Positions 13,325 through 41,155 of a stretch of 64,000 bases of DNA are shown piece by piece. Both the position numbers and the translations under genes were made by a program. The notes under the pieces were generated by a model that was not told the origin of the DNA, did no database searches, and worked only from the letters and a program-made list of their open reading frames with translations. Source of the stretch: a virus (lineage: Duplodnaviria; Heunggongvirae; Uroviricota; Caudoviricetes). Location: IMG/VR virus record IMGVR_UViG_2861079508_000001. One strand, given 5' to 3'. Position 1 is the first letter of the stretch. Each line of letters begins with the position of its first letter.

Positions 13325-13326
13325 GA

Positions 13327-18215: not shown

Positions 18216-18232
18216 AAACAAATTGTTTTCTT
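18216..18232. promoter_or_regulatory. motif A (AAACAAATTGTTTTCT) upstream of HNH / dnaE-C operon
   Basis: near-palindrome 15-30 bp upstream of start codon. Confidence 0.4.
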
Positions 18233-18249
18233 ATCTTATAAATTAATTC

Positions 18250-20613
18250 TCAAATATCGAAGCTCGTTATGTCGGCATTTATTGCCATTGCTTCGGCATA
18301 AGTGCGACGCTCACCATCAGCACAAAGTAGGCGTGCTGCTTTATGGATTTTTCTCGTAGAACCATCATCCAGTGACACTGTCACCCAGCCTTCCTCCGCT
18401 CGCTTAATGAAGTCGCCGCCAATGGATTTCATTTTCTCCATATCTTTTTTCCCGATCGCTTTCCTGACCGAGTCTGCTTCCGCCATTGAGAACCCCGCCA
18501 AGATTCGCGTAGCAGCCATGATCTGTTCCTGATAAATCAGAACTCCGTTTGTGTCGCGAGAGATGTCGTCCAGCATTGGGTGTAAGGAATGTGGGGCCAT
18601 GAAGCCTTTGGCCACGGACACATAATCGTCCAACATGCCGGATTGAATCGGGCCAGGTCGGAAGAGCGCAGTTGTAGCGACGACCGTTTTAAAGCTCATT
18701 GGCTCAATTCCACCACCTAAATCTTTAAGCAGCTTGCGCATTGGGCCTGATTCAAGCTGGAATACGCCCTGTGTATACCCTGCAGCAAAACCATCCAGCA
18801 CCTTGCGATCTTCAAGAGAAATGGCATCAAGATTGATATCTTCACCTGTGTTCTCTTTTATGTAGCGTTTTGCACTATCGAGCAAATCGAGAGTTGCCAG
18901 GCCAAGCACGTCCAGCTTAATTAGGCCCATAGCCTCGCAGTAACGCTTGTCAAATGCGATACAACGCGCGTCACCACGGCGTTCAACCGGTGTACGTTCT
19001 GTCAGAGGAACACCTGCTACGATCATCCCTGCCGCATGTCTACCAAAGCCACGCATAAGGCTTTGTAACTTGCAGGCTGCATTGAATGCATCAGGATATT
19101 TTGTTGCGTATTTGTCGAGACTTGCCAGTTGTTCGCGCAGCTCTTCCAATGGAAGGCTATCATCCTCGACGTTCTTCAGTTCTTTTGATACCGCCATATC
19201 TGCGGACTCCACACCATAAATACGAGCGGTGTCACGTAGTGCAGAGGCTGCGCCCAGGTAGGTGAAGTTCGGAATGCCTGCAACGTAATCTTCGCCGTAG
19301 CGTTCATTCAGATACTCGATCACCTCATGGCGACGTGCCTGGCTGAAGTCCAAGTCCGCATCCGGCAAGTCGAGACGCTCAGGGTTGATGAAACGCTCAA
19401 ACAGAAGACCGTGACGGATTGGGTCGACGTTGGTTATGCCTATGCACCACGCCACCAGAGAACCGGCAGAGGAACCACGACCAGGCCCGACAGGAATGCC
19501 AGTTTCACGGCTGTGATTCATCAGATCGCGTACCATCAGGAAGTAACCACAAAATCCCAGGCGAGTAAGCGTGTCCATTTCGTACTTAAGTCGCTCAACA
19601 TAAACCCTGTTCTCAGAAGCAGGTGGTGTGTATCCAAACTCTTTTGTGGTAAGACGTTTACGCAGCCCTGCAACAGCCAGTTTCATCAGCGTTGCAGGTT
19701 CGTCGTCTGCCATCTTGGGCAGTGCTGGTGGCAATTCATGCCAGCGCCATGTGCAGGCATCGATAATGGAGTCCTGCGTTGTTGAGGCCATTGCAGCTGT
19801 TACCGGCACATCCATGCGAACGGAGAAGGCTTTAAGCGCCTCAAGGAGATGGCGACGACCATTGATGGCGTTATCTCGCTGGTGGGGGATACGCAGACGA
19901 TGCGGCTGGTCGATTTTTATGTTGTTCGTAACCATGTGCGCAATGTCTTTAATGTCTGCATCGTCGATCGATTCGTAATAAGCGGGATAGAACGCTACTG
20001 GCTCTATTTTCAGTGCGCTGGCGACTTTCATCGCCCGGACGTTAATCTGGTCGTAGAATGGGGTAGGGTGCGGATAAACCACACTATAGAAGTTGTCTTT
20101 TCCACCCGCTGTAATCAGTGTGCTTATGATTTTTGCAAAATCGTTGCGTTGGAACACGCTACCGATGTCGGAAGTAAGCAGGATGATGTTGCCTTTGGCA
20201 TATGTAGAAACCAACTGTTCGAGCGAGAGACGCGGTACAAAGTAGAACTGTTCTCGTGTGTTGGCCGCCGTCATTAGTTCGCAGATGTCGCGATATCCTT
20301 TCTCATTTTTAATTAGAGCGGTAAACGAGTAGTTACGTCCTCGCTCTAATGATTCCATACATCTCATAGATTCTTTAGCAAGTTTAGCCCGGTGCTCGTA
20401 TGTGGGATCATCAACAATGTTTAGTTTCACACCACAAATAACCGCCATGTCGTCACCAGCGGCACGTTGTAGTGGAATAACGCTCGCAATATTCATGCTA
20501 TCTGCTGAAATTACAGCGGTGTAGCCAGCTTCTCTGGCAATCTTCACCGCGTTTTCTGCTTTTAGAGCCGACTCCCCAAGTGAGAAGTCAGTTCGAACCA
20601 TCAGTGCCTTCAT
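18250..20613 (-). CDS. dnaE: DNA polymerase III alpha (DnaE) N-terminal fragment (PHP domain plus polymerase core)
   Basis: 787 aa; GRGSSAGSLVAWCIGITNVDPIRHGLLFERFINPERLDLPDADLDF and FQLES...LFRPGP...YQEQIM match the DnaE core; last ~45 aa have no DnaE counterpart. Confidence 0.85.
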   Translation of the reverse strand: MKALMVRTDFSLGESALKAENAVKIAREAGYTAVISADSMNIASVIPLQRAAGDDMAVICGVKLNIVDDPTYEHRAKLAKESMRCMESLERGRNYSFTALIKNEKGYRDICELMTAANTREQFYFVPRLSLEQLVSTYAKGNIILLTSDIGSVFQRNDFAKIISTLITAGGKDNFYSVVYPHPTPFYDQINVRAMKVASALKIEPVAFYPAYYESIDDADIKDIAHMVTNNIKIDQPHRLRIPHQRDNAINGRRHLLEALKAFSVRMDVPVTAAMASTTQDSIIDACTWRWHELPPALPKMADDEPATLMKLAVAGLRKRLTTKEFGYTPPASENRVYVERLKYEMDTLTRLGFCGYFLMVRDLMNHSRETGIPVGPGRGSSAGSLVAWCIGITNVDPIRHGLLFERFINPERLDLPDADLDFSQARRHEVIEYLNERYGEDYVAGIPNFTYLGAASALRDTARIYGVESADMAVSKELKNVEDDSLPLEELREQLASLDKYATKYPDAFNAACKLQSLMRGFGRHAAGMIVAGVPLTERTPVERRGDARCIAFDKRYCEAMGLIKLDVLGLATLDLLDSAKRYIKENTGEDINLDAISLEDRKVLDGFAAGYTQGVFQLESGPMRKLLKDLGGGIEPMSFKTVVATTALFRPGPIQSGMLDDYVSVAKGFMAPHSLHPMLDDISRDTNGVLIYQEQIMAATRILAGFSMAEADSVRKAIGKKDMEKMKSIGGDFIKRAEEGWVTVSLDDGSTRKIHKAARLLCADGERRTYAEAMAINADITSFDI

Positions 20614-20791
20614 GTGTTTTTACCTTTCTGGTTTTTTTGATTTTGTCATTGGGGAAGCCTACGAACTTCCCATGCATCGAAATCGCAACTTCTTTTGCTG
20701 ATTGGTGACAATCGGGCTTGTCTGGACACACCAGACAAGCCTTACCTGTTTCAGAAGCAGCGATAAGAGAGCCGAAACATCCTTTACGCAC
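20588..20791 (-). CDS. small Cys-rich hypothetical protein (67 aa)
   Basis: CLVCPDKPDCH zinc-ribbon-like cluster; overlaps dnaE start by 26 bp. Confidence 0.3.
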   Translation of the reverse strand: MRKGCFGSLIAASETGKACLVCPDKPDCHQSAKEVAISMHGKFVGFPNDKIKKTRKVKTHEGTDGSN

Positions 20792-20793
20792 GA

Positions 20794-22029
20794 TTAACCA
20801 AATATTTTTTGAACAACTTCACGAGCCGCTTGTGCAGAAGCTGAAGGGAGTTTGTTAATGAAAGAACGCTCAATACCTGTCACAAAGTCGCCTCGCATCA
20901 TTCCAATCTTGGCTGACAACAAAAGTTCACGAGGGCCAATTGGCTGACTAATAAGGTGTTCTTCGTATCCATCGCGAACGATACCGGCAAACTTAACCAT
21001 CTTTTCAGCGTATTCATCCACGATGCCTGCATTTGTCAACATGTTGATCTCTGCGTCTTTGCTCATGTATTTCACATTCGAAACGATGCCAAAACGCGAA
21101 AAGTTCGCGGCGTTCTGGATGTTTGTACCCTGGTACAAGCCGGTTTCATCACCAGATCCGTTCGTGTTGCCAGTGCCAATGAAAGCAAACCGTTCATGCG
21201 GAGTAATGCGACGCCATTCTGGAGTTGCCTCTTTGATGACCAACGCTTCACCTTCCAGCACTGGCTGATACACGCCAAGAATTTGTGGAAACGCAAAGTC
21301 GTATTCATCCGCGAGGTAAACCCAGCCATGCTTCATTGCGAGCGCAAGCAAGCCAGGTTCGAAATACGTAGAGCCATCACGCGCCAGAATTTGCCCCGTA
21401 ACATGTGCCTCTTCCATTGATGCTGTATGTTGGGCACGGATCAACGGACGATTGAGCAAAGCACATAGCTGTGTAGGCAATGACGATTTGCCTGTTCCTG
21501 CATGACCCCACAAATAGCCAGGTATGCCAAGTTCAAGCATCATGAAAATATCTTTGATCAGTTCGAAGTCGCCATATACGTAGCCCTTCTTCACTTCTGG
21601 AACGAACTCTGGATACGGCGTATTGACGTTGACGCTAACCATGAGCGGCGTCCCACGTTTTGTTCCGAGTTCTTCCACCGTTACGTTTAGCAGTTCGTGA
21701 GCTGCGACCAGATCTGTCTTGTACTCAACTGTGCCTGTGTAGCCAGGGCTACTGGTCAAGACAGAAGATTTGGCCATTTCGCTTTTTTGCTCGGCACGTT
21801 TAGCTTGAATTGCATCAAGTGCCTTTTTCGATAGCGTTGGTTCATCTGGAAACTGCGTTGTGTACATTTTCAGTACGGTGTCAGGATCGGCATCTTTTAC
21901 TGACTCAGGAATGCCCTCGCAATTACCATTGGCTACATGGGACTTAAAATAGTGAAATGATTTGCCGCACCACTTGCAAACAAGGTAATCAGAAGGATTT
22001 TTTTCATTTTGCAGTGCAGTAGTCGTCAT
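20794..22029 (-). CDS. CobS-like MoxR-family AAA+ ATPase
   Basis: 411 aa; Walker A LWGHAGTGKSSL; paired with a downstream VWA protein as in pHCM2-type phage-plasmids. Confidence 0.7.
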   Translation of the reverse strand: MTTTALQNEKNPSDYLVCKWCGKSFHYFKSHVANGNCEGIPESVKDADPDTVLKMYTTQFPDEPTLSKKALDAIQAKRAEQKSEMAKSSVLTSSPGYTGTVEYKTDLVAAHELLNVTVEELGTKRGTPLMVSVNVNTPYPEFVPEVKKGYVYGDFELIKDIFMMLELGIPGYLWGHAGTGKSSLPTQLCALLNRPLIRAQHTASMEEAHVTGQILARDGSTYFEPGLLALAMKHGWVYLADEYDFAFPQILGVYQPVLEGEALVIKEATPEWRRITPHERFAFIGTGNTNGSGDETGLYQGTNIQNAANFSRFGIVSNVKYMSKDAEINMLTNAGIVDEYAEKMVKFAGIVRDGYEEHLISQPIGPRELLLSAKIGMMRGDFVTGIERSFINKLPSASAQAAREVVQKIFG

Positions 22030-22090
22030 GCGTTTTTCCTTTGTTCTCTAATGAGCGTTCAACTTCTTATATAAATATATCATTATATAT

Positions 22091-22109
22091 CGTAAGTGGT
22101 TACTTATCG
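22091..22109. promoter_or_regulatory. motif B upstream of cobS-like gene
   Basis: CGTAAGTGGTTACTTATCG. Confidence 0.4.
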
Positions 22110-22124
22110 TTAAGGCTGTTTTGT

Positions 22125-24233
22125 TCACTTTAAAATGATACGAGATAGTTCAGTAACTACAGATGAACCAAGACTATCAACGCTCGTTACCAGGGCATGA
22201 TTTGAGTAAAATCTCTCCGGTGCGTCAGTCATGATGCCAATTGCCATCAAATCAATATCAGTCTGCGTTTCAATTTGCTTCGCAACTGAACGCAAATGAG
22301 CGTCAAAACCTCTCCCAACAGCCCACGGCGCGCCATCACTCAGAACAAGCATGATCTTCCTGTCCTCCATGCGACCGGAAAATAACGATGCAAGGCTGGC
22401 TATGCTTTCACCATCCACGTTATTAAGAAGTGGGAATGTGTAGCCTACGCACCCCATACGTGAGCGAACTTCGCGAGAATTTACCTTTTCATTCCAATTT
22501 TTGATGATAGGTAGCATTAAAGATTCAAAGCGAGAGAACTCATACTTGACAGCCTTAAGTTCTCCTGCCGCCATATGACTACCAAATGTAGTGAAGCCGG
22601 TGATAATGTTGGGAACATTTATTCGATCAAGGGCATCGGCGATGGTATATGCACTTGCAAGAGCCAGTTTAATCGTTATACCACTCATTGAACCTGATAA
22701 ATCAATCACTTGTTGAACACAGGCGTTAACGGCTTTAGATTCTTCTTTTTTACGAAACACGCGAGCATCATTCATTGCTAATCTGTAGATACTAGAACCA
22801 TGAATGCGCCCCCGACGCTGGCCCGGTATAAACTGAACTCTGTTTCTGCTTGCTATTGCTCGCTCCAGGTCTTTTGCCAGCGTCGACGAAACACCTGACG
22901 AAAGATGCTTTTCAATATATTTGTCGAAGAGCTGGTTGCCTTCAGGAACGATGCGATAGCGGCTGATTGGATATCCTCCCAAATCAATATCGGAGAATGT
23001 TTTAATAAGCCGTTTGATATGGGCTTCTGCCTGATCAATCGAGCCGATGAAGTCGTATGAGCGATTGTATGGCCTGTATTCGCTTTTCGAGCTTTCTGTT
23101 AACTCGCTTTTAATCGTTTCGGATAGAGCATCTTCTGTCATGCCTCCGACTTCATCTTCTATGCTATCCAGCTCCTCTAAAGCCTCTTCCAGACTCATTT
23201 TTGACGGAGTTGGGATATCTGAAGAGCCATCTTCTGTCGTTTTTCTTTTTTCGTGGTCAGCGGTTAATGATTCTGACGCCGCGTTATCAGAAGCATCAGA
23301 ATCTGATACCTCTTTATCATTTTCTGTATCATCGAATATTGTTTCTGATGATTCAGAATTATCTGAATCATCACTGTCGCTATTATCATGTTTGTACTTA
23401 CTATGTGATTCTGATTTGATAGATTTGTGATTATCTAACACTGAGGGTGTCTCATGATCTTCGTTGTCTTCATTGTTTTCTCCAGAGGCATCCGTCTGGT
23501 CAGCGTCTGAAGGATCGGAAGTTTTTCCCGGAGCTGACTCCTTACCTTTGCTTTCACTTTCAGTGTCTTTGAGGATCTTAGCTATGGTCGCAGCCACCTT
23601 TACACAATCCTCGGTGCAAGACATGTTACGCACGGCCACATCGATACCATGTTCTTTTAATAATGAAATTGGTTTCTCAATGACAGGCCAATGTTCATCC
23701 ATGAAATCTACGAACGGTGCTTGGCCATCCCAGGCTCTTACAACCGGACAGAGAAAGAAGTTTAGAAAAAGCGCGCGCTGATCTTTGCCACAATAAGCAA
23801 TAGCCTCTGAAGCCTTTGGTTTAAAGACTTTTTCGATTATAAGGCGCTGAGTTGCCATCAGATTACGTCTTGTTCCGTTAAAGACCTGACCCATTTTTCG
23901 CTCGATGAACACGTCTTCTAAGGCATTCCATAGCGACCAGGAAGGAACGCGTCCTTTTTCTCTCATTTTGTTGGACACACGAATATCGGTAAACAAAATG
24001 TGAGCAACCTCATGATCGAGAAATCCGCGCACAGCATTCATCAATGCCGGTGTTGCGTTATCCGGGATTGATGGGATGTTTACGAAAATTGGCTCTCCAT
24101 CATCGTTATAGCGTACATAAGCGTCGTCCCCTCGTTCTGCAACAGGGATGTTTTTACCTGAAAGGAGAGCGACTACTCGTTTTACACTGTCACGGAAGTC
24201 CTGAACCTCTTTGATGGAACGTTTTTTAGACAT
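22125..24233 (-). CDS. CobT-like von Willebrand factor A domain protein
   Basis: 702 aa; VWA/MIDAS-like IDLSGSMSG; long acidic Ser/Asp-rich linker. Confidence 0.65.
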   Translation of the reverse strand: MSKKRSIKEVQDFRDSVKRVVALLSGKNIPVAERGDDAYVRYNDDGEPIFVNIPSIPDNATPALMNAVRGFLDHEVAHILFTDIRVSNKMREKGRVPSWSLWNALEDVFIERKMGQVFNGTRRNLMATQRLIIEKVFKPKASEAIAYCGKDQRALFLNFFLCPVVRAWDGQAPFVDFMDEHWPVIEKPISLLKEHGIDVAVRNMSCTEDCVKVAATIAKILKDTESESKGKESAPGKTSDPSDADQTDASGENNEDNEDHETPSVLDNHKSIKSESHSKYKHDNSDSDDSDNSESSETIFDDTENDKEVSDSDASDNAASESLTADHEKRKTTEDGSSDIPTPSKMSLEEALEELDSIEDEVGGMTEDALSETIKSELTESSKSEYRPYNRSYDFIGSIDQAEAHIKRLIKTFSDIDLGGYPISRYRIVPEGNQLFDKYIEKHLSSGVSSTLAKDLERAIASRNRVQFIPGQRRGRIHGSSIYRLAMNDARVFRKKEESKAVNACVQQVIDLSGSMSGITIKLALASAYTIADALDRINVPNIITGFTTFGSHMAAGELKAVKYEFSRFESLMLPIIKNWNEKVNSREVRSRMGCVGYTFPLLNNVDGESIASLASLFSGRMEDRKIMLVLSDGAPWAVGRGFDAHLRSVAKQIETQTDIDLMAIGIMTDAPERFYSNHALVTSVDSLGSSVVTELSRIILK

Positions 24234-24252
24234 GGCTAATCCTTTGTTATGA

Positions 24253-24268
24253 AAACAAATTATTTACT
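24253..24268. promoter_or_regulatory. motif A variant (AAACAAATTATTTACT) upstream of cobT-like gene
   Basis: 20-35 bp upstream of ATG 24233. Confidence 0.35.
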
Positions 24269-24331
24269 AGTGTGTTTAATGTAGCACTGCGCGAACAGGG
24301 AACTAAGCCATTCGCGCAGGGAGAAGAGGGG

Positions 24332-24544: not shown

Positions 24545-24795
24545 TCAATCAATCCATTCTAACTTATACTATGGTAAGGAATACTACTAAAATTTATATC
24601 AATACTGAATACATTCATATCATATGCAAGTTAATTTTCTTACCTGTTTTGGGCTAATTTTTCTCCGTGCAATGGCCTTTAACCGGTCTTTTAAGTGCCT
24701 ATCGAAAAAAATGATAATAGCTTTACAACCCTAACCTTTGATGTAATATCGGTAAGCACTTACCAGAGAGAATTGAACGCGCAAAGGTTGTAACA

Positions 24796-25182
24796 ATGTC
24801 TGACAACAAGATTGAATTTATAGAAAGTCGCTATGCTGCTTTTATCGCAGGGCTGATTGAATCCTCACCTATGAGTCAGGCCCAAATAGCCAGACTTATT
24901 GGTTATAAAAATGCCAACAACCTTTCTTTAATTAAAAGTGGCAAAATTCCTTTGCCTATCGATAAGGTTCGTCCGTTGGCGCTGGCGCTGGGTATTGAGC
25001 CAAGTCGTCTTATGATGATGGTGCTGGAAGAACGCCAACCTGAACTCGCAGCATTTTTATACAAAGAAGGCACCGCTCCTCTTAACGAGGACGAAAAACA
25101 GGTTCTTGCTGCATATAACGAGCGATTCGGTAAAGAGAAAGGCGCATCACAAAAGGTTGTTGAGGCCATAAAGTCTCTATGA
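24796..25182 (+). CDS. helix-turn-helix (XRE-like) transcriptional regulator
   Basis: 128 aa; SQAQIARLIGYKNANNLSLIKSGK helix-turn-helix; AT-rich 250-bp upstream region. Confidence 0.55.
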   Translation: MSDNKIEFIESRYAAFIAGLIESSPMSQAQIARLIGYKNANNLSLIKSGKIPLPIDKVRPLALALGIEPSRLMMMVLEERQPELAAFLYKEGTAPLNEDEKQVLAAYNERFGKEKGASQKVVEAIKSL

Positions 25183-28623: not shown

Positions 28624-28630
28624 CAAAAAA

Positions 28631-29208: not shown

Positions 29209-29284
29209 TGGTGCCGGTTAACGGACTTGAACCGCTGGCCATTCGCTTACAAAGCGACTGCTCTACCAACTGAGCTAAACCGGC
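29209..29284 (-). tRNA. tRNA-Thr (anticodon UGU)
   Basis: hand fold: acceptor GCCGGTT/AACCGGC, D-arm GCTCAGTTGGTAGAGC, anticodon loop TTTGTAA, T-loop TTCAAGT, CCA. Confidence 0.8.
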
Positions 29285-29288
29285 AATT

Positions 29289-29375
29289 TGGTGGGGAGTG
29301 ATGGAGTCGAACCACCCGAGTCGCCATGACAGTAGATTTACAGTCTACACCGCTACCTCTACGGACTAACTCCCC
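29289..29375 (-). tRNA. tRNA-Tyr (anticodon GUA), class II
   Basis: hand fold: anticodon arm CAGACTGTAAATCTG-like (GACTGTAAATC), long variable arm, T-loop TTCGACT, CCA. Confidence 0.85.
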
Positions 29376-29380
29376 TAAAT

Positions 29381-29455
29381 TGGCGATGGTGGGTGGATTC
29401 GAACCACCGACCAGTTGGTTAACAGCCAACTGCTCTACCGCTGAGCTACACCATC
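29381..29455 (-). tRNA. tRNA-Asn (anticodon GUU)
   Basis: hand fold: perfect 7-bp acceptor GATGGTG/CACCATC, anticodon loop CTGTTAA, T-loop TTCGAAT, CCA. Confidence 0.85.
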
Positions 29456-30669: not shown

Positions 30670-30885
30670 TCATTTTAACACTCCTGATTCTACTAATTGC
30701 TGTAGCAATACTTTCCCTTTATCAGTTAACTGGTAGTTGGCCGAACACTTCGTTTCAGAAACGTTTGCAACCAACCCTAAACGCTCTAACTTAGCTCGCG
30801 TTTTAGGCTTCCAGTACTCAGGGAACTCCGGCCACTTACTGATTTCATGAAGCGTTTCCTTCTCCCGTTTACTTAATACGATCAT
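30670..30885 (-). CDS. hypothetical protein (71 aa)
   Basis: ORF only. Confidence 0.35.
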   Translation of the reverse strand: MIVLSKREKETLHEISKWPEFPEYWKPKTRAKLERLGLVANVSETKCSANYQLTDKGKVLLQQLVESGVLK

Positions 30886-33739: not shown

Positions 33740-33802
33740 ATTTTAGGCGCAATAGTTCCCTATACGAAGATGCCGGGCTTATAGTCTGCCCGGCATTCAC
33801 CA

Positions 33803-34449: not shown

Positions 34450-35595
34450 ATGAAATACATAAAATCTTCATCGTTGCTGGCATTAACTTTGCTTTTTAGC
34501 TCTGGATTCGTTAACGCAGACAATAAACAAACGCTGATAGAAGCCGCTACCGCAGGGGATACCGCAGCACAAAGTGAGTTAGGGACAAATTATTTTGATG
34601 GTATCAATGGTTTTGATAAGGATGTAGTTGAGGCCAAGAAGTGGATTGATCTCGCTGCAGAAAAGGGAGACAAAGTAGCATATTATGCACTTGGGGTTAT
34701 GTACACATTTGGCGAGGGTGTAGATAAAGACTTAAATAAAGCAGTTGAGTACTACAAACTTGCGGGAGATGCTCGTGAAGGTAGAGCCTATAACAATCTT
34801 GGTGCTATTTATCAAAAGGGGATGCTTGGTAAAGTAGATCATGCGCTCGCCATTAAATACTTCAAACTAGCCTCTGATGCCGGGTATGTTAAAGCTAGCT
34901 ACCTTCTTGGTGCGTATTACCAATATGGTAAAGGTGTACAAAAGAGTTATAAAAAAGCTTTTACTTATTACAAAAAAGCGGCGGATCAAGGTAGTTCAGA
35001 TGGCATGTTCGCATTAGGCACCTTATACGATGACGGTTTAGGTGTTAAACGCAACGATGCCGAAGCAATTAAGTGGTATAAAAAAGCTGCTGAACTCGGA
35101 AACGCCGATGCCATGACAAATCTTGGCATTATGTATGAGTATGGTGAAGGGGTTAAAAAAGACTATAAAAAAGCAGCTGAGCTTTATCAGGCTGCTTGTG
35201 ATAAAGAAGATAAAAATGGCTGTGATTACATTGCAGAACTGAAAGAAAGCGGCAAATATCGAGCGCCGGCTTCCAAAGCCAAAACAAAATCCGCCACCCA
35301 GCGACTTATTGCTAAATCCATTGATAAGGGCGTTAACGCTACATTTACCTGGCAGGGTGATGATGCTACCTTCACCGCTAATGATGGCAAAGTTGACTGC
35401 ACCTTCCTGAAGGATTTTTCAGAGAAAGGAGGCAATCTGGCTACCTCGTTTGTTTGCACCGATAACGTTCAAATCATACTGAAGCAATTCAGAGATACCA
35501 AGAATGCCTACCTCGCGGTAATGACTGACAACTTCAACACAGAAGTTAAATCATTTTCGGTCAATGTGTACGTGACTAATACTGGTTCAAACTAA
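34450..35595 (+). CDS. secreted Sel1-repeat (TPR-like) protein
   Basis: signal peptide MKYIKSSSLLALTLLFSSGFVNA; repeated A..YY.LG.MY..G.GV.KD...A..W Sel1 units; ATG at 34450 preferred over track start 34405. Confidence 0.75.
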   Translation: MKYIKSSSLLALTLLFSSGFVNADNKQTLIEAATAGDTAAQSELGTNYFDGINGFDKDVVEAKKWIDLAAEKGDKVAYYALGVMYTFGEGVDKDLNKAVEYYKLAGDAREGRAYNNLGAIYQKGMLGKVDHALAIKYFKLASDAGYVKASYLLGAYYQYGKGVQKSYKKAFTYYKKAADQGSSDGMFALGTLYDDGLGVKRNDAEAIKWYKKAAELGNADAMTNLGIMYEYGEGVKKDYKKAAELYQAACDKEDKNGCDYIAELKESGKYRAPASKAKTKSATQRLIAKSIDKGVNATFTWQGDDATFTANDGKVDCTFLKDFSEKGGNLATSFVCTDNVQIILKQFRDTKNAYLAVMTDNFNTEVKSFSVNVYVTNTGSN

Positions 35596-36840
35596 TGCTG
35601 CTATGCCTTTTACCTTGCTTAAAAGTTCAAGCTGTCGTGAGTAAGGTTTTGCGCAATAGTAGGCTTTGATAATCTGCCCCGGGGTCGCATCGCCGGGGTC
35701 GAGTCCTTCCTCGCCCAAACATGCAATTTTCACATTAAGACCGATACTGGTCAGTCGCCTGGCTGCGGCCATAGTGTTTCGTATAGCTTGCTTTTCACTA
35801 TCCCACATCATGATCACATTACGTAATCCACGCGCCTTGAGCGTCAGGAACGCGCCCAACTGATCTTCTGCATCCTGAGTGGTGTTACCAGATAGATGCA
35901 TCCCGAACGTTCCTATTGGTTCCACGTAATCGCGTAATGTTTCTTCGTCAAAAATAGCTCGTTTGACCCCCATAACATCGAACGCCCCCTCACAGACAAC
36001 TACAGTCTGTTTGCCGACTGCATTGTGGCCGTTGTAGAGAAACTTACCTGAAGCTGGAAGCTGCATAGGAAAGAGGTAGCGGCGTTCTGCTGTACCGGTA
36101 ATGTCTCGTCCTTGAAATGTCTTCATTACCCCATCCAGATCGTAAACCGGTATCAGTATTCGCATATCGAAAATCTGTCCTTTAACCTGATCTGTATACG
36201 GATCTACATAAGCGTGCTTGCCTTCGACGCAGTATCGTAGGTCAAAATACTTTGCCATTTCAGGCGATATATTTCGTTCAACCAGATAGTCTGGAAGATG
36301 GCCATCTATAGGAAGATCGTAATGACGAGGGAGTGCAACTGGTCCCTCTAACTCGACTGTGCTTGCAAGCACTATCTCTTCTTTCTTTGGTGCCCACCCC
36401 TGGGAAAGAAGAGCGTTCTGCACATATTCCTCGAACTGTCGTCGTGATTTACCGCTGTAGTGCTTGAGGAAGACCAGCTTATTGAACTGAATCTCTTCGG
36501 GATGATCACCAGCGAAGCATTTACCGACGCCACTGGTCAGATTGAAATATACCTTCCAGTTGGAGCTGCCGCATACCGGACACTCCTTGATATTCACTTC
36601 ACGACCGCGAGTACTCACGCCTCCACGTCGATAAACGATACCTTCAGTATCCAACCATTGTTCAAAATCTAATTCGGTAATTAGCTCTTTCAGCTCGCTC
36701 ACGATAATTCCACTTTTAACAGGCAATATTGTGACCAACCTAAATGTTGATATAACATAAAGGCTCATGTGTTTTTCTTTTGTGGTTTGGCAAAAGAAAA
36801 GTTGTTTCACCAATGAATCAAGCGTGGAGGTGTTCTCCAC
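35587..36840 (-). CDS. DNA primase (zinc-ribbon plus TOPRIM)
   Basis: CPVCGSSNW...C..GDH zinc ribbon; TOPRIM-like VVVCEGAFDVMG; start uncertain (ATG at 36768 possible). Confidence 0.7.
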   Translation of the reverse strand: MENTSTLDSLVKQLFFCQTTKEKHMSLYVISTFRLVTILPVKSGIIVSELKELITELDFEQWLDTEGIVYRRGGVSTRGREVNIKECPVCGSSNWKVYFNLTSGVGKCFAGDHPEEIQFNKLVFLKHYSGKSRRQFEEYVQNALLSQGWAPKKEEIVLASTVELEGPVALPRHYDLPIDGHLPDYLVERNISPEMAKYFDLRYCVEGKHAYVDPYTDQVKGQIFDMRILIPVYDLDGVMKTFQGRDITGTAERRYLFPMQLPASGKFLYNGHNAVGKQTVVVCEGAFDVMGVKRAIFDEETLRDYVEPIGTFGMHLSGNTTQDAEDQLGAFLTLKARGLRNVIMMWDSEKQAIRNTMAAARRLTSIGLNVKIACLGEEGLDPGDATPGQIIKAYYCAKPYSRQLELLSKVKGIAALV

Positions 36841-36849
36841 GCTTATTTT

Positions 36850-38190
36850 TTAGGTAACGTCTAAGATTCGCTCAATGAAGCGCATTTGTTCGAGGTTTTG
36901 TTTAACGCGAATGCTGATCCCTCCCTGCTGGTTACGCGAACCAGCAAAGTAGAGACGAGCCTCTCCTTTCGCTTCTTCTTCTTCGGTTTTGTTGATCGTT
37001 ATTACCAGGTCAGCAATACGTACTTTTTCGATGTTGTCGGCAGCGTGCATCATTGTGGCAACTTCTGACGCGCCACCTTCACGGTTTGTTTGCGACGCCG
37101 TGATACCAGCAACGTTATGCTTGTCATAAAGAGCACGTAAATCGGTGTAGATACTACGAATGTTGGCGCGATCATCACGAAGGTCATAACTGGCACGCAT
37201 CAAATCTGCGTAGTCGACAACAACCATGTCAGGCACCATGCCATTGGCTTTCATACTGTTAAGCATACGGTCCAGATCTGCCGGTGACATACTTCCTGAC
37301 GGACGCTCAACAACCCACAAACTACCAATCCCCTTCGTGGCTCCCAACTCTGCCAACTTGCGATGAACTTCATCGCGCCGTTCCACCAGCTTGGACATTT
37401 CCGTCTCCGACAATCTTGCATCAAAACGGTCGGACAAAATGGTGGTGTGAACCTCCAGCGAGAGATACAGAACATTGTAGCCAGCAAGCGTAGCGTTTAT
37501 GGAAAACTCACCCATTGCGGTCGATTTACCGGATTTAGCAAAACCCATGAAGAGCACCATTTCGCGCTTTGCCCAGCCTTTTTGGTACAGCAATCTATCA
37601 AGCAGAGGGAGTCCAGTTGTAATGCTGTTTGGCACATACTCCTCTGAAGCCTCATATTCACGCGCTTTCAATCGCTCACTTGCGGAGGTGTAGTAGTCAT
37701 AGATTCCGGTCGCTTCGTTCGAGCCTATCTGCTGAACCTTGGCCATGATTGCCATCGCCCCCTGAAAGTCGCCCTTCTCTTTCAGTTCAGCAGCTTTAAT
37801 CAGAGCATCATCAAACGCTACACTTTTTGCGAATGTGGATACCTGGTCAACCATGTACGAGGTATCAGACAATTTTTCTGCAAGGATGCGCTTAAACGCA
37901 GCAACAACATCCGGGAAGAGTTCCTCACGGATGGTCTTATCGCGTTTCGCACGCTTAAGCATATCCAGAATCGCAGATGAAGAAGGCGCGCTCTTGTACA
38001 TACGGTAATAGCCCGAAACCATATTAACCAATATGGCATTGGCCGCATTGGCAAATTGGCTAGGCACAACCAGATCTCCCGCACGAGTAAGAAACTCGTG
38101 ATCACGACAAAAATATGCCGTCAGTCTGTTCTGGAAATCTTCATCAAACTCTTCGGACAGCCCGCGTCCTGTATGGCAAAGTTCGGTCAT
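36850..38190 (-). CDS. DnaB-like replicative DNA helicase
   Basis: 446 aa; Walker A GFAKSGKST in RecA-like C-terminal domain; ATG at 38190 with AAGGAAAG ribosome-binding site. Confidence 0.8.
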   Translation of the reverse strand: MTELCHTGRGLSEEFDEDFQNRLTAYFCRDHEFLTRAGDLVVPSQFANAANAILVNMVSGYYRMYKSAPSSSAILDMLKRAKRDKTIREELFPDVVAAFKRILAEKLSDTSYMVDQVSTFAKSVAFDDALIKAAELKEKGDFQGAMAIMAKVQQIGSNEATGIYDYYTSASERLKAREYEASEEYVPNSITTGLPLLDRLLYQKGWAKREMVLFMGFAKSGKSTAMGEFSINATLAGYNVLYLSLEVHTTILSDRFDARLSETEMSKLVERRDEVHRKLAELGATKGIGSLWVVERPSGSMSPADLDRMLNSMKANGMVPDMVVVDYADLMRASYDLRDDRANIRSIYTDLRALYDKHNVAGITASQTNREGGASEVATMMHAADNIEKVRIADLVITINKTEEEEAKGEARLYFAGSRNQQGGISIRVKQNLEQMRFIERILDVT

Positions 38191-38209
38191 GTGCTTTCCT
38201 TTGTTTTTT

Positions 38210-38225
38210 AAACAAATTGTTTTCT
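38210..38225. promoter_or_regulatory. motif A (AAACAAATTGTTTTCT) upstream of helicase gene
   Basis: 20-35 bp upstream of ATG 38190. Confidence 0.4.
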
Positions 38226-38233
38226 AGTATTAG

Positions 38234-38983
38234 TTAATTAGATAGGGGATCAATAAACCGCCGTGCTTCTTCCAGTTCTTCTGGAAAGTGGGCGGAAATA
38301 AGGCGCTCTGGAACGATTTCCATTAGCCAGATAGCGGAGAAAATTGCGCGTATGCGCTTGCTGCGGGGGATGGTGCGTAAACGCTCCAGAATCCACTCAA
38401 AATAGCTTTCCTGGATCGGGTTGAACTGCATGTCTCCCATATGCTTAAAGCTAACTAGAGAGTCATCCAGACGGGTTGTTGCGCGTCTGGCTAATTTCTC
38501 TTCGAATATCTCAACCAGCTCTGGCTGCCATAAATGCTGTGGGCGCGGCAGCTTGTCCCACAGCCGTCGTGCAGCTGCGGAAAGAACGGTGGAGATAAAG
38601 TAGTCGTATGAGCAGCAATAGCGGTCAGCAAACTGGCGTGCTTTCCATAGAGACGTTTTATTGGCAGTCGACAACTCCTGATAAGGCAGGCGTTTTAACC
38701 CGGTGGTGAACGGAGCTGTTTCAAAGTGTTCGCGACCGTGCGTCAGCATGATATTTGAGTACTGACGTTTGTATGCCTCCGTAAAAAGACAGGTGGCCAT
38801 GAGAGGATGCATGTCGCGGTAATCAAACCACTTCGTCTCGAAGAGTTCAGCCTCGTCTTTACAGCGCGACAAACCAATGTTTTCAGCGACCCACTTGTCC
38901 ATAACAGCGGTATTCCACTCTGTCATGAAGTCGTACTGGTCGTTGTCGATGGTATCGAAAAAGATTTGGCTCATGTGGCTCAC
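38234..38983 (-). CDS. hypothetical protein (about 246 aa; ATG probably at 38974)
   Basis: ORF with AGGTGA ribosome-binding site; motif B abuts it. Confidence 0.4.
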   Translation of the reverse strand: MSHMSQIFFDTIDNDQYDFMTEWNTAVMDKWVAENIGLSRCKDEAELFETKWFDYRDMHPLMATCLFTEAYKRQYSNIMLTHGREHFETAPFTTGLKRLPYQELSTANKTSLWKARQFADRYCCSYDYFISTVLSAAARRLWDKLPRPQHLWQPELVEIFEEKLARRATTRLDDSLVSFKHMGDMQFNPIQESYFEWILERLRTIPRSKRIRAIFSAIWLMEIVPERLISAHFPEELEEARRFIDPLSN

Positions 38984-38985
38984 CT

Positions 38986-39008
38986 GGTAGGTAGTTACTT
39001 ACTTATCA
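38986..39008. promoter_or_regulatory. motif B upstream of 38234..38974 gene
   Basis: GGTAGGTAGTTACTTACTTATCA. Confidence 0.4.
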
Positions 39009-39090
39009 CAATGAGCGGATGATAGCGACTGGTGGCAGTTTTTGGAAGTGGAAACGGAAGGGAGTTGTTCTGGTGGTGTCTTTTAAAAGA

Positions 39091-39144
39091 CCTGCTTCCG
39101 TATATATTTAATAAGTTACTTATTATTTATATATACAGAAGCAG
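39091..39144. promoter_or_regulatory. 54-bp imperfect palindrome (arms CCTGCTTC(C/T)GTATATAT...) centred on a motif B core AATAAGTTACTTATT
   Basis: read directly; intergenic upstream of the GIY-YIG-like gene. Confidence 0.5.
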
Positions 39145-39256
39145 GCATAACTTGTCGTCTTAGACGCCCAGAAGCTCTACACTTTGAGCCTGTTAAATTG
39201 ATTAAAAACTTATGTGTAAAATAGAACGCATTAGTCAGTAGCAAAGAGATGCAATA

Positions 39257-40024
39257 ATGGACGATTTATCGGTATACGCGAGATCATTGGATAAGGCTAA
39301 ATACTATGTTTACTGTCTCTATGATACAGAAGACAAGATGAAAAGACCGTTTTACATAGGAAAAGGCAAATCGACTCGTTGTCTCGATCACATCAAGTAT
39401 CCCGATGACTCTCCCAAATCCATGCGGATCAAAGAACTTTTGGCTAATAAAAAATTAGGCATAGATATACTTCGTCATGGTATGGATGAAACCACAGCCA
39501 AACTTGTTGAGGCGACATGCATCGACCTTATGGGGGTCGGAGAGCTTACGAATAAGGTACGAGGAAGTGGTTCCATGATGGGCAGAATATCACTGGACGC
39601 CTACCATCACTTAGTGCTGCAAGAGGAAACTGAAATTGCTCCTGAGCACGCCGGTCTTGCCTTCCTGCTAAACAGCACCTACAAGTCAGGAATGTCCGCT
39701 CTGGCATTATATGAGGCTACGCGTGGCGTATGGGCAAAGGTTCCAAGAGACGAGAATCTCAAATATGCCTACGCTACATATGGTGGGCTGATAATGGAAG
39801 TTTATCAGATTGAATGCTGGGTCAAAGCCGGTTCTCAGCAGTACTTTACAAGGGATATAGCTCTTGGCCCCGACACAAAACGTTATGAATTTGTTGGCAG
39901 AATAGCCGATGAGCATATTAGAAAACTGTATGTAGGCAAATTAATCAAGAAGCCACCAAGCTACGGTAGCCCTTTTGTGAAGGTTGGGGTGGTTAGGACT
40001 GAACATAGTGTTAGCGCGGCATAA
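39257..40024 (+). CDS. GIY-YIG-like nuclease domain protein (possible free-standing homing endonuclease)
   Basis: N-terminal KYYVYCLYDTEDKMKRPFYIGKGKSTRCLDH resembles the GIY...YIG...R...H pattern; plus-strand orphan behind a 54-bp palindrome. Confidence 0.4.
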   Translation: MDDLSVYARSLDKAKYYVYCLYDTEDKMKRPFYIGKGKSTRCLDHIKYPDDSPKSMRIKELLANKKLGIDILRHGMDETTAKLVEATCIDLMGVGELTNKVRGSGSMMGRISLDAYHHLVLQEETEIAPEHAGLAFLLNSTYKSGMSALALYEATRGVWAKVPRDENLKYAYATYGGLIMEVYQIECWVKAGSQQYFTRDIALGPDTKRYEFVGRIADEHIRKLYVGKLIKKPPSYGSPFVKVGVVRTEHSVSAA

Positions 40025-40076
40025 AGCTGACACTGTAGTTATGCATTGGCGCAATGTACGCGCCAATGCATGATTT

Positions 40077-40436
40077 TTAACCTTTCTTCATCAACTCTCG
40101 TTTGATTTCATCGGTACGCATCGTGACATCGGCAGCGGTGATCGCCTCATTCAATTTCACGATGTCCTCGATTTCCTGCGGTGACTTCTCTGCCAGATGG
40201 AAAATGGCTGCTCGAATCACGTCAGAACGAGTGAACTTCTCGAAGCGAGGGATGAACTTCATCATCTCCAGCAGTTCGAAGTATTCGTCCTCCAGTGACA
40301 TTGTGCGGCTTTTAATTTTCTCTTTGCCACGAGTCGGGCGTCCCTGTGGTCTGACTGGTTGGCGCAAAGGAGTTGTGTTCTTAGCCGGTGCATCAGGCTC
40401 TTTGCGCTTTGCTAGGTCACCCATTTTCATGGACAT
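40077..40436 (-). CDS. ParG-like centromere-binding protein (ribbon-helix-helix), partner of ParA
   Basis: 119 aa; basic N-terminal tail, C-terminal ribbon-helix-helix-like segment; 1-bp overlap with parA. Confidence 0.5.
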   Translation of the reverse strand: MSMKMGDLAKRKEPDAPAKNTTPLRQPVRPQGRPTRGKEKIKSRTMSLEDEYFELLEMMKFIPRFEKFTRSDVIRAAIFHLAEKSPQEIEDIVKLNEAITAADVTMRTDEIKRELMKKG

Positions 40437-41104
40437 TATTCTTCTTCCTCCAGACTCAACAGATAATCTACAAATTCTTCAAACTCGGCTTCCGCCTTTT
40501 TGTCGCGCTCGCTACCGGTCATTTCAAAGATAGAACGACCAGACTCTTCCGCATCATCATAGACGTTGCGGTTATATAGATTGACTGGCGCAGACTCGAT
40601 GCCAAACGTCTCAACAATCTCTTTAGCCGCCAGAATGCGAGACACTTGTGATGGCAAAGCCGGGCACTGGTTCATGACCGCGCGGACCTTCACTTTATCG
40701 TTTACATTACGAACATTGTCGATAATAGGATCGATGTCACGCAGAGATTTCAAATCACGACGCTTAGGACGAAGCGGGATAATGATAACGTCGGCCATCA
40801 GCATCGCTTGTCGCTGAATTTCGGAGTCAAAGCCACCAGCATCTACCACTACATACTCAGCTCTACCCTGAAGCGATTTTAGGTGCTTAATGATGTCATC
40901 CTGAACGTATGCAAAAGGAATCAGCTCAAGGTCTTCGTTCTGTCGACGGTCTTCACACCAGCTCGTTGTCGTGCGCTGAATATCTATATCGGTGATATAA
41001 ACCTTCTTCTTCTTTTTGACTTTCAGGCAAACGGCAATTTGCTGGGCAACGGTGGATTTGCCAGGCCCGCCCTTTGTGCCGCCAACCACAAAGATCTTGG
41101 TCAT
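40436..41104 (-). CDS. parA: ParA/ParF-type partition ATPase
   Basis: 222 aa; deviant Walker A GGTKGGPGKST. Confidence 0.85.
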   Translation of the reverse strand: MTKIFVVGGTKGGPGKSTVAQQIAVCLKVKKKKKVYITDIDIQRTTTSWCEDRRQNEDLELIPFAYVQDDIIKHLKSLQGRAEYVVVDAGGFDSEIQRQAMLMADVIIIPLRPKRRDLKSLRDIDPIIDNVRNVNDKVKVRAVMNQCPALPSQVSRILAAKEIVETFGIESAPVNLYNRNVYDDAEESGRSIFEMTGSERDKKAEAEFEEFVDYLLSLEEEE

Positions 41105-41139
41105 TGGAGAGTTCCCTTTGCGTATATAATTATCGTCTG

Positions 41140-41155
41140 AAACAACTTGTTTTCT
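41140..41155. promoter_or_regulatory. motif A (AAACAACTTGTTTTCT) upstream of parA
   Basis: 36-51 bp upstream of ATG 41104. Confidence 0.4.

What the first reader, a model, noticed from the sequence alone, without database searches (positions are those of the whole stretch)
18216..41155. Second palindromic motif A (AAACAAATTGTTTTCT) immediately upstream of replication and partition operons
Four close matches lie 15-50 bp upstream of the start codons of the HNH/dnaE-C unit, the cobT-like gene, the helicase gene and parA. Each abuts the ribosome-binding site. The core AAACAA-AT-TGTTT is dyad-symmetric. It is a candidate operator for a repressor, or a translational operator, that coordinates the replication genes.
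Basis: seen in the sequence. Interest (0 to 1): 0.55.

Follow-up and report, generated by a model that had tools for sequence, protein, structure and literature searches.

The report
Repressor operator shared by phage-plasmid promoters
The four repeats are real copies of a 13-bp palindrome that sits in or just after the promoters of at least 17 operons of an SSU5/pHCM2-type phage-plasmid, and it is most likely the binding site of a plasmid-encoded repressor, probably the small partition protein encoded next to parA.

Summary
All four sites exist at the stated coordinates, 14-35 nt before the start codons of minus-strand genes. Matches are about 1000-fold above chance: 16 replicon hits with at most 1 mismatch against 0.017 in shuffles.

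The window is an E. coli SSU5/pHCM2-like phage-plasmid. The motif is wider than "replication and partition". The full replicon has at least 17 sites, including terS, nrdB and many small genes. They are conserved at orthologous positions in SSU5, Klebsiella, K. oxytoca, Cyrano and Y. pestis pMT1, while the flanks diverge.

The core is AAACAA-N-TTGTTT with an uninformative centre. Variants show no compensatory changes and no RNA fold. Sigma-70-like promoters lie directly upstream, so the palindrome falls at about +4 or +13 to +15. In published Cyrano lysogen RNA-seq, motif genes are silent except the parA operon.

Best reading: a DNA operator of a lysogen-expressed repressor. The leading candidate is the 119-aa probable ribbon-helix-helix protein after parA. 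Its promoter site is the only one kept in every diverged lineage examined.

Site S1 travels inside a mobile HNH cassette that splits dnaE. The binder remains unproven. I found no published description of this motif.

The parts
18216..18231 (-). Site S1. It reads AGAAAACAATTTGTTT on the coding strand (0 mismatches) and ends 14 nt before the ATG of the HNH endonuclease gene. It lies in the 48-bp gap after the dnaE N-terminal part.
   Evidence: invariant in the Cronobacter and Enterobacter copies of the cassette
18233..18260 (-). Putative sigma-70 promoter of S1: -35 TCGATA (18260-18255), 16-nt spacer, -10 TAAGAT (18238-18233). The -10 abuts the motif.
   Evidence: PWM scan, score 7.7 against a control 95th percentile of 7.15. 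Consensus match only; the transcription start is not mapped.
17421..18370 (-). A 950-bp mobile HNH (HNH_3 + NUMOD3) cassette that replaces 144 bp of intact dnaE and carries S1. It splits dnaE into 18250-20613 and 16301-17470.
24253..24268 (-). Site S2. It reads AGTAAATAATTTGTTT (2 mismatches) and ends 19 nt before the ATG of the cobT-like gene. That gene heads the cobT-like / AAA ATPase / dnaE gene string.
   Evidence: orthologous sites in SSU5, pJN2-26 and pMT1 are perfect or have 1 mismatch
24278..24286 (-). Putative extended -10 of S2: TGcTACATT. The hexamer ends 9 nt before the motif.
   Evidence: read; orthologues TGaTAAATT (SSU5) and TGTTATTTT (pJN2-26)
38210..38225 (-). Site S3. It reads AGAAAACAATTTGTTT (0 mismatches) and ends 19 nt before the ATG of the DnaB-like helicase gene (helicase-primase operon). 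It lies in a 43-bp intergenic gap.
   Evidence: invariant island in alignment A5
38226..38253 (-). Putative helicase promoter: -35 TTGATC (38253-38248), 16-nt spacer, -10 AATACT/TAATAC that abuts the motif. Orthologues have TAGTAT, TACGAT and CATAAT.
   Evidence: scores 8.0-10.2
41140..41155 (-). Site S4. It reads AGAAAACAAGTTGTTT (perfect to the degenerate consensus) and ends 35 nt before the ATG of parA.
   Evidence: retained in every lineage examined that has the RHH protein
41168..41196 (-). Putative parA promoter: -35 TTTACA (41196-41191), 17-nt spacer, -10 TAGGCT (41173-41168), then 12 nt to the motif. It follows the terminator hairpin at 41258-41275.
   Evidence: same geometry in the diverged locus L143
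40436..41104 (-). parA: a 222-aa Walker-type ParA with no N-terminal DNA-binding domain (type Ib).
   Evidence: Pfam AAA_31, MipZ, CbiA and ParA matches start at residues 2-6
40077..40436 (-). A 119-aa probable ribbon-helix-helix centromere-binding protein (ParG/omega-like). It is the leading candidate for the motif-binding repressor.
   Evidence: expressed at 9x background in a Cyrano lysogen

Best explanation
Motif A (AGA-AAACAA-N-TTGTTT on the coding strand) is a DNA operator. Each copy lies within or just downstream of a sigma-70-type promoter, so the palindrome centre falls at about +4 (helicase, HNH) or about +13 to +15 (parA, cobT, most small genes). A bound protein would then block RNA polymerase binding or promoter escape, as LacI does at O1.

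One replicon-encoded protein that binds as a symmetric oligomer would hold at least 17 operons down in the plasmid-prophage state. These include the lytic replication genes (helicase-primase, cobT-like-dnaE, nrdB), the packaging and structural operon, and many small early genes.

The most likely binder is the 119-aa probable ribbon-helix-helix protein encoded directly after the type Ib parA. On this reading it autoregulates PparA through S4, as ParG, omega and other type Ib adaptors do. Its site has been copied into other promoters in the SSU5 core lineage, which couples partition-protein level to silencing of lytic functions. The same sites could also act as dispersed centromeres.

What is shown: the motif, its enrichment, its conservation, its promoter context, and the silence of motif genes in lysogens. 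What is inferred: that it acts on DNA as a repressor site (I rate this about 0.7), and which protein binds it (the RHH adaptor, about 0.4). The confidence of 0.55 is for the statement as a whole.
For: Symmetry. In the logo of 17 sites, the 12 palindromic positions carry 1.4-1.9 bits each and the centre carries 0.00 bits. Variant sites carry only single-sided changes.

Enrichment. There are 16 hits against 0.017 expected.

Conservation. S2, S3 and S4 are invariant islands in alignments of E. coli, Salmonella SSU5, Klebsiella pJN2-26, K. oxytoca and Y. pestis pMT1, while adjacent intergenic bases diverge.

Promoter context. Upstream sequences score far above random as sigma-70 promoters (Mann-Whitney p = 6e-11). 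About 40% exceed the control 95th percentile, and several have a TGn extended -10. The operator-to-promoter distance falls in two classes, which fits an operator rather than a fixed promoter element.

Expression. In Cyrano lysogen RNA-seq (PMC9928086, S1 Table; background 9.8) the values are terS 7.1, cobT-like 7.8, dnaE 10, helicase 21 and other motif genes 5-13. The parA operon reads 50/89/55.

Link to the RHH protein:
- S4 sits in PparA of a type Ib par operon.
- The 119-aa protein has a disordered basic tail followed by a strand-helix-helix core, KSRTMSLEDE...FTRSDVIRAAI.
- Family members hit Pfam RHH_1 and RHH_8 in that region, and one remote member is above the curated cut-offs.
- The putative DNA-reading strand SRTxS is invariant across the family, matching the invariant motif.
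- In diverged lineages the parA site is the one that persists. L143 (RHH 63% identical) has a single perfect site in 20 kb, in PparA. L144 and K. oxytoca (48-53%) keep only the parA and helicase sites.
- Acinetobacter relatives have an unrelated adaptor. They lack motif A at helicase, primase and cobT. A 13-mer with one mismatch does lie in the parA-side intergenic region.

The CI-like repressor's own control region (24545-24795) has a different palindrome, GGTAAGCACTTACC, and no motif A.
Against: - No binding data exist, and no transcription start sites are mapped.
- Type Ib centromeres and operators are usually arrays of repeats, not a single dyad.
- The terS sites have no recognisable sigma-70 promoter.
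- Seventeen of 18 sites carry AGA/AGT on one side only, on the 5' side in the sense of the downstream gene wherever there is one. A purely symmetric DNA binder does not explain this.
- Y. pestis pMT1 keeps perfect sites at cobT and terS without the RHH gene. pMT1 is a recent, decaying relative, so this is weak evidence.
- Moellerella has the RHH homologue with the same strand residues but no dispersed regulon, and only a degenerate site near parA.
Confidence: 0.55

Rival explanations
1. It is a DNA operator, but for a different regulator. Candidates are another conserved small replicon protein, such as the 71-aa winged-helix-like protein (window 30670-30885), the Cra-like 70-aa protein or the 88-aa protein upstream of terS, or a host transcription factor shared by Escherichia, Salmonella and Klebsiella.
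For: All the operator evidence above applies equally. Several conserved small proteins give weak DNA-binding-domain hits. Core genes absent from Moellerella, which lacks the dispersed regulon, include the 71-aa, Cra-like and FljA-like proteins. pMT1 keeps sites without the RHH gene.
Against: None of these genes has a motif A site in its own promoter. None is known to be expressed in lysogens above about 2x background. The one site that persists through all diverged lineages is in PparA, next to the RHH gene. I know of no enterobacterial factor with this site, and a full-text search for the sequence found nothing.
Confidence: 0.22
2. It is an RNA-level (translational) operator. The motif acts in the 5' leader of the mRNAs and is bound by the replicon's FljA homologue. 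FljA represses fliC by binding its mRNA leader. The 'orphan' motif copies followed by hairpins would be short decoy RNAs.
For: - The motif always lies between the putative promoter and the Shine-Dalgarno sequence, and its AGA extension is strand-oriented.
- A full-length FljA homologue (Pfam Flag1_repress, 1e-80) is a core gene in 830 plasmids of this family.
- The fliC leader contains CAAGTTGT, which matches the inner 8 nt of the motif.
- Orphan sites outside the window are each followed by hairpins whose stems differ between copies but stay complementary.
Against: - The centre base N is free, so CAAGUUGU is present in only about a quarter of sites.
- fliC matches only 8 of the 12 specified positions.
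- There is no stable RNA hairpin (MFE 0 kcal/mol; z-scores not significant).
- There are no compensatory substitutions.
- Perfect two-fold symmetry is the signature of a DNA dimer site.
- The FljA homologue is only about 2x background in lysogens, where the motif genes are silent.
- FljA's actual binding site could not be read, because the paper is not held.
Confidence: 0.08
3. It is a family-specific promoter or initial-transcribed element recognised by a modified or phage-directed RNA polymerase, rather than a repressor site.
For: The element is directional. There is a conserved AT-rich block 8-13 nt upstream (T at -10 in 16 of 17 sites). It heads nearly every lytic transcription unit. The terS sites lack a sigma-70 promoter.
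Against: No RNA polymerase or sigma gene is annotated or detected among the proteins scanned. The distance to the -10-like hexamer is not fixed, at about 0 or about 10-12 nt. Perfect dyad symmetry has no role in a promoter. In related lineages the same genes use a different palindrome instead (cobT in K. oxytoca), as expected for interchangeable operators.
Confidence: 0.07
4. The sites are dispersed partition (centromere) sites with no regulatory role, like the four sopC-type sites scattered in phage-plasmid N15.
For: The motif lies next to parA. The candidate binder is the partition adaptor. The sites are dispersed round the replicon.
Against: All sites that precede a gene sit at the same place relative to promoters and start codons. 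A pure centromere does not need this. This reading is compatible with the best explanation as an added role.
Confidence: 0.05

Closest known systems
Omega (ω) repressor of pSM19035 (inc18 plasmids): an RHH global regulator and centromere-binding partner of the ParA δ
   Same: It is a small RHH protein with a flexible N-terminal tail, encoded with a Walker ParA. Its sites lie in the promoters of the partition, copy-control and stability operons, so one partition adaptor coordinates several maintenance functions. The half-site centres are 7 bp apart, as in converging ω heptads (established knowledge; the geometry is read).
   Different: ω sites are arrays of 7-10 heptads (WATCACW) upstream of or over the -35. 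Here each site is a single dyad at +4 to +15. There are at least 17 sites on a 113-kb phage-plasmid, and they include lytic phage operons. There is no sequence similarity, and binding is untested.
ParG / parH of TP228 and other type Ib partition operators
   Same: ParA is short with no HTH. It is followed by a small protein with a disordered basic tail and a strand-helix-helix core. The operator lies in the parA promoter.
   Different: ParG recognises arrays of ACTC boxes confined to the par locus. Here the site is a 13-bp palindrome dispersed replicon-wide.
KorA / KorB regulon of RK2 (IncP)
   Same: These are 12-13-bp palindromic operators (OB is a 13-bp dyad with a central base) repeated at many promoters for replication, partition and other functions. 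KorB is itself the ParB of the plasmid.
   Different: KorB is a ParB/HTH protein that acts at a distance with KorA. No ParB-type protein is linked to motif A here. The two ParB-domain genes of the replicon are not expressed in lysogens.
C1 operators of phage-plasmid P1
   Same: This is a phage-plasmid whose repressor controls many dispersed operators, including one in front of a DnaB-like helicase gene (ban).
   Different: C1 sites are asymmetric 17-mers bound by a monomer. Here the CI-like repressor appears to have its own, different palindrome, and motif A forms a second regulon.
Stoperators of mycobacteriophage L5 / cluster A (PMC6550527)
   Same: There are dozens of short sites in short intergenic gaps, oriented with transcription, which silence lytic genes in the prophage.
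   Different: Stoperators are asymmetric 13-mers that block elongation. Motif A is a dyad associated with promoters.
Dispersed SopB centromere sites of phage-plasmid N15
   Same: Palindromic partition-protein sites are scattered through a phage-plasmid genome, near phage genes, with reported effects on phage gene expression (recalled, not checked here).
   Different: N15 uses a type Ia SopAB system with four 16-bp sites. Here the system is type Ib, there are at least 17 sites, and they are precisely placed in promoters.

Membership tests
Type Ib partition operator/centromere (ParG- or omega-like RHH adaptor) | Walker-type ParA of about 200-230 aa without an N-terminal DNA-binding domain | tested here: met
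   ParA is 222 aa. Pfam P-loop matches start at residues 2-6.
Type Ib partition operator/centromere (ParG- or omega-like RHH adaptor) | The downstream small adaptor has a ribbon-helix-helix fold | tested here: inconclusive
Type Ib partition operator/centromere (ParG- or omega-like RHH adaptor) | Adaptor-binding repeats located in the parA promoter (autoregulation) | tested here: met
   S4 lies 12 nt downstream of the TTTACA-17-TAGGCT promoter. It is conserved in all lineages with the adaptor. It is a single dyad, not an array.
Type Ib partition operator/centromere (ParG- or omega-like RHH adaptor) | The adaptor binds the repeats, and the repeats confer ParA-dependent stability | not testable with these tools
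   Needs EMSA or footprinting and plasmid stability assays.
Global plasmid/phage repressor regulon (KorA/KorB, omega, P1 C1 type) | The same operator is repeated at many promoters of one replicon, far above chance | tested here: met
   16-17 sites against 0.017 expected. Thirteen sites lie 5-65 nt before a start codon.
Global plasmid/phage repressor regulon (KorA/KorB, omega, P1 C1 type) | The operator overlaps the promoter or transcription start | tested here: inconclusive
   Sigma-70-like promoters are predicted directly upstream, well above random. Transcription starts are not mapped, and the terS sites lack a predicted promoter.
Global plasmid/phage repressor regulon (KorA/KorB, omega, P1 C1 type) | Target genes are repressed when the regulator is present | tested here: inconclusive
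   Published lysogen RNA-seq shows motif genes at background except the parA operon. This is correlative only.
LexA (SOS) box | CTGT-N8-ACAG dyad | tested here: not met
   The motif is AAACAA-N-TTGTTT.
CI-type immunity operator of this replicon | Copies lie in the divergent control region of the CI-like repressor gene (24796-25182) | tested here: not met
   No motif A with up to 3 mismatches lies in 24545-24795. That region has GGTAAGCACTTACC and related half-sites.
Structured RNA leader / known RNA family | Stable or covarying RNA structure, or an Rfam match | tested here: not met
   MFE is 0 kcal/mol for the motif. The leaders are not different from shuffles. There are no compensatory changes. 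Rfam finds only three tRNAs in 17000-42500.
L5-type stoperator | Asymmetric site that works in one orientation inside transcription units | tested here: not met
   The core is a perfect dyad. Only a 3-nt one-sided extension is oriented.

The most novel reading that the evidence does not exclude
Motif A is read on the mRNA, not the DNA. On this reading the family's core FljA homologue, an mRNA-leader-binding translational repressor borrowed from flagellar phase variation, controls about 20 phage-plasmid leaders through this element. The 'orphan' motif copies followed by hairpins would be short decoy RNAs that titrate it, giving a CsrA/CsrB-like post-transcriptional switch for a phage-plasmid.
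Probability: 0.07. Interest if true: 0.85.

Novelty: new member of a known kind. Interest (0 to 1): 0.5.

Why it matters
SSU5/pHCM2-like phage-plasmids are among the commonest large plasmids of clinical Escherichia, Klebsiella, Enterobacter and Salmonella. About 750-930 records in PLSDB carry their helicase, adaptor or FljA genes, and Y. pestis pMT1 is a relative. How they stay quiescent as plasmids and switch to lytic growth is essentially unknown. I found no paper that mentions this motif or an operator for SSU5.

A conserved regulon of about 20 sites gives a concrete map of their transcription units. It also yields a testable prediction: the partition adaptor, not only the CI-like repressor, silences lytic replication and packaging. 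If that is right, plasmid partition and the lysis-lysogeny decision are wired through one protein. Motif A also becomes a simple handle for engineering these elements or for detecting them.

Tried and rejected
- Covariation between motif and candidate regulator. The motif and the adaptor's putative DNA-reading strand are both invariant across the family, so no covariation test was possible.
- Natural knock-outs. Nearly all enterobacterial members carry the adaptor. pMT1 lacks it but is too recent a relative to be informative.
- Moellerella plasmid. I fetched it whole hoping for a variant regulon. It has no enriched palindrome at all.
- FljA binding site in the literature. The key paper (PMC1347349) and a 2026 preprint on SSU5-like promoters (10.64898/2026.08.19.745698) are not held.
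- Exact-pattern scan of viral contigs.
- Rejected readings. It is not a LexA box or a CI operator. It is not an RNA hairpin. It is not an IHF, KdgR or PurR-like site (recalled consensus sequences do not fit the spacing). It is not a ParB-type parS, because the ParB-domain genes are silent in lysogens and unlinked to the motif.

Full report
**What the window is.** The region matches complete E. coli plasmids at 100% identity (CP057685.1, NZ_CP080257.1). It matches phage-plasmids Cyrano and CMS-2020a at about 97% and Salmonella phage SSU5 at about 79%. It is therefore an SSU5/pHCM2-type phage-plasmid. I used NZ_CP080257.1 (113,446 bp) as the whole replicon. For record positions 1-36286, the window coordinate equals the record coordinate plus 27714. 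Window 1-27714 corresponds to record positions from about 84439 to 113446. Nearly all genes in the finding's range are on the minus strand.

**The observation.** With up to 3 mismatches there are 9 hits against 1.35 expected. With up to 1 mismatch to the oriented 16-mer there are 3 hits in the window and 16 in the replicon, against 0 and 0.017 in shuffles. On the coding strand the motif reads AGAAAACAAnTTGTTT. It ends 14, 19, 19 and 35 nt before the ATGs of four genes. These are the HNH endonuclease, the CobT/VWA protein, the DnaB-like helicase and a 222-aa ParA.

**It is a replicon-wide regulon.** The whole replicon has at least 17 good sites, and 13 of them lie outside the window. They precede several kinds of gene. 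These include a tandem pair before the small terminase gene that heads the head-tail string, and one before nrdB. They also include DUF4942, DUF1380 and TerB-like genes and several small genes of unknown function. A blind scan for enriched palindromes finds only two. One is this motif (AACAA-N1-TTGTT, 12 against 0.33). The other is an unrelated palindrome, TAAGT-N4-ACTTA (7 against 0.07).

**Anatomy.** In the 17-site logo the twelve dyad positions carry 1.4-1.9 bits each, and the centre carries 0.00 bits. Three extra bases (AGA or AGT) occur on one side only in 17 of 18 sites. Wherever a gene follows, that side is 5' in its sense. Variant sites show single-sided changes only. The motif RNA has no fold (0 kcal/mol), and the four leaders fold no better than shuffles. 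Rfam finds nothing but three tRNAs.

**Promoter context.** Sequences upstream of the sites score much higher as sigma-70 promoters than random positions (p = 6e-11), and about 40% exceed the control 95th percentile. There are two geometries.
- The -10 ends 10-12 nt before the motif. Examples are parA (TTTACA-17-TAGGCT) and many small genes with TGnGATAAT.
- The -10 abuts the motif. Examples are the helicase (TTGATC-16-TAGTAT, TACGAT or CATAAT in different genera) and the HNH gene (TCGATA-16-TAAGAT).

The dyad centre therefore falls at about +13 to +15 or about +4. Both placements are classic for steric repression. The terS sites have no recognisable sigma-70 promoter. PparA follows a terminator hairpin at 41258-41275, so it is a true operon start.

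**Conservation.** Orthologous sites occur in the following replicons:
- SSU5, about 20 sites.
- Klebsiella pJN2-26, about 20 sites.
- Cyrano.
- K. oxytoca pCAV1752-111.
- Y. pestis pMT1.

In alignments of the helicase, parA and cobT upstream regions, the motif is an invariant block while neighbouring intergenic bases differ. Acinetobacter relatives (helicase 37% identical) lack the motif at helicase, primase and cobT. They use TAGTAAGCGCTTAyT-type palindromes over the -35/spacer instead.

**Site S1 is special.** Comparison with the intact dnaE of Cyrano shows that window 17421-18370 is a 950-bp insertion that replaces 144 bp. The insertion encodes an HNH_3/NUMOD3 endonuclease. It occurs in only 24 plasmids of Escherichia, Enterobacter and Cronobacter, always in dnaE. 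It carries S1 and its promoter-like sequence unchanged, although the cassette as a whole has diverged to about 90%. A mobile gene has thus adopted the family's regulatory signal. That signal is not an ancestral control of dnaE.

**Expression.** The lysogen RNA-seq table for Cyrano (PMC9928086, S1 Table; background 9.8) gives these values:

| Gene | Value |
|---|---|
| terS | 7.1 |
| cobT-like | 7.8 |
| dnaE | 10 |
| helicase | 21 |
| other motif genes | 5-13 |
| ParA | 50 |
| 119-aa protein | 89 |
| next gene in the parA operon | 55 |
| CI-like repressor | 96 |

. Motif promoters are therefore off in the plasmid state, except the partly active parA promoter. Promoters that look constitutive must be held down by something made in the lysogen.

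**Who binds?** The CI-like HTH protein (24796-25182) is unlikely. Its own divergent control region has GGTAAGCACTTACC and no motif A.

The gene after parA encodes a 119-aa protein with a disordered basic N-terminus followed by KSRTMSLEDE, a helix, and FTRSDVIRAAI plus a helix. The window protein itself gives no Pfam hit. Homologues hit RHH_1 at E = 0.005-0.1, and a remote homologue passes the RHH_1 and RHH_8 cut-offs in the same columns. With the 222-aa ParA this makes a type Ib partition pair, in which the adaptor normally binds the parA promoter.

The parA site is also the most persistent one.
- In a lineage with a 63%-identical adaptor, it is the only motif A in 20 kb, and it is perfect, with the same promoter geometry.
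- In lineages at 48-53% identity, only the parA and helicase sites remain. Other genes there carry the second palindrome.
- In Moellerella, the 27%-identical homologue keeps the same strand pattern (SRTVSM). Only a degenerate site near parA is left.

The half-site centres are 7 bp apart, as in converging omega heptads. I therefore favour the adaptor as the repressor, but I rate that step at only about 0.4.

**Rivals.**
- Another regulator of the replicon or the host (0.22).
- An RNA operator for the family's core FljA homologue (Pfam 1e-80; 830 plasmids). The fliC leader shares the inner 8-mer CAAGTTGT, but the free centre base, the lack of RNA structure and the perfect dyad argue against this (0.08).
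- A special promoter element (0.07). This is weakened by the variable spacing and by the exchange of motif A for the other palindrome at cobT in related lineages.
- A purely centromeric role (0.05).

**Known or new.** Full-text searches found no description of this motif or of any SSU5-family operator. The mechanism proposed is of a known kind. It resembles omega of pSM19035 most closely, and also ParG, KorA/KorB and P1 C1. I therefore rate it a new member of a known kind, with moderate interest.

Noticed in passing
window 16301-20613 (cassette 17421-18370): The phage-plasmid's DNA polymerase III alpha gene is split into a 787-aa N-terminal part and a 389-aa C-terminal part by a free-standing HNH/NUMOD3 homing-endonuclease cassette. 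The dnaE-C start overlaps the HNH stop. The cassette occurs in only 24 of about 750 related plasmids, always at this site.
   Followed up: yes
window 22093, 30209, 15716, 27615, 33724, 38988, 42480, 49504 (and about 12 more outside the window): A second dispersed palindrome, TAAGTAnnTACTTA ('motif B', 7 exact against 0.07 expected), lies a few bases upstream of TATAAT-like hexamers, over the -35/spacer. It may define a second promoter/operator class. Related lineages (K. oxytoca, L143/L144, Acinetobacter) use variants of it at genes that carry motif A here.
   Followed up: partly
window 24545-24795 and 24796-25182: This looks like the immunity switch. A CI-like HTH repressor (128 aa, expressed in Cyrano lysogens) lies divergent from a 70-aa gene of unknown function. 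The region holds a perfect palindrome GGTAAGCACTTACC at 24751 and GGTAAG/CTTACC half-sites nearby.
   Followed up: partly
window 24283-24318 (minus strand): An inverted repeat, CTGCGCGAA...TTCGCGCAG, lies between the 70-aa gene and site S2. It is conserved with compensatory changes in SSU5 and pMT1 (CTGTACGAA...TTCGTACAG). It may be a structured RNA or a protein site just upstream of the cobT promoter.
   Followed up: no
outside the window: NZ_CP080257.1 49897-50421; Cyrano CYRAN_114: A full-length homologue of FljA, the translational repressor of phase-1 flagellin mRNA, is a core gene of SSU5-like plasmids and of Y. pestis pMT1 (830 PLSDB records). No flagellin gene was seen beside it in the replicons examined. 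It could shut off host fliC, whose leader is identical in 859 E. coli genomes.
   Followed up: partly
outside the window: NZ_CP080257.1 54053, 58015, 61638; SSU5 85602, 87625, 88319; pJN2-26 21773, 23662, 24759: These are 'orphan' motif A copies in the opposite orientation with no ORF downstream. Most are followed at once by a hairpin whose stem differs between copies but stays complementary (GGCCACAA...GTGGCC, GGCTAT...ATAGCC, GGCAGTG...CTGCC). One pair flanks the DUF1380 promoter at a conserved 48-bp spacing. They could be short RNAs or bidirectional terminators.
   Followed up: partly
window 39257-40024 (+): A 255-aa GIY-YIG (LEM-3-like) nuclease gene lies on the opposite strand between the parA operon and the helicase operon. 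It may be another free-standing homing endonuclease.
   Followed up: no
window 12251-14588 (-): The RecA-like gene is annotated in the reference plasmid as one 780-aa 'LAGLIDADG family homing endonuclease' CDS, and is 2340 bp in Cyrano. This suggests an intein-containing recombinase. In the window it reads as three consecutive ORFs.
   Followed up: no
window 3593-11592 (-): A complete type I restriction-modification system (R, DUF4268, S, M) is carried as cargo.
   Followed up: no
window 29212-29455 (-): Three tRNA genes in a row. The matching cluster in Cyrano is annotated Asn, Thr and Ser.
   Followed up: no
outside the window: NZ_CP080257.1 58115-61406: Copies of metG (methionyl-tRNA synthetase) and apbC, annotated like host housekeeping genes, sit inside the small-gene region of the phage-plasmid. 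In Cyrano the apbC-like gene is expressed in lysogens.
   Followed up: no
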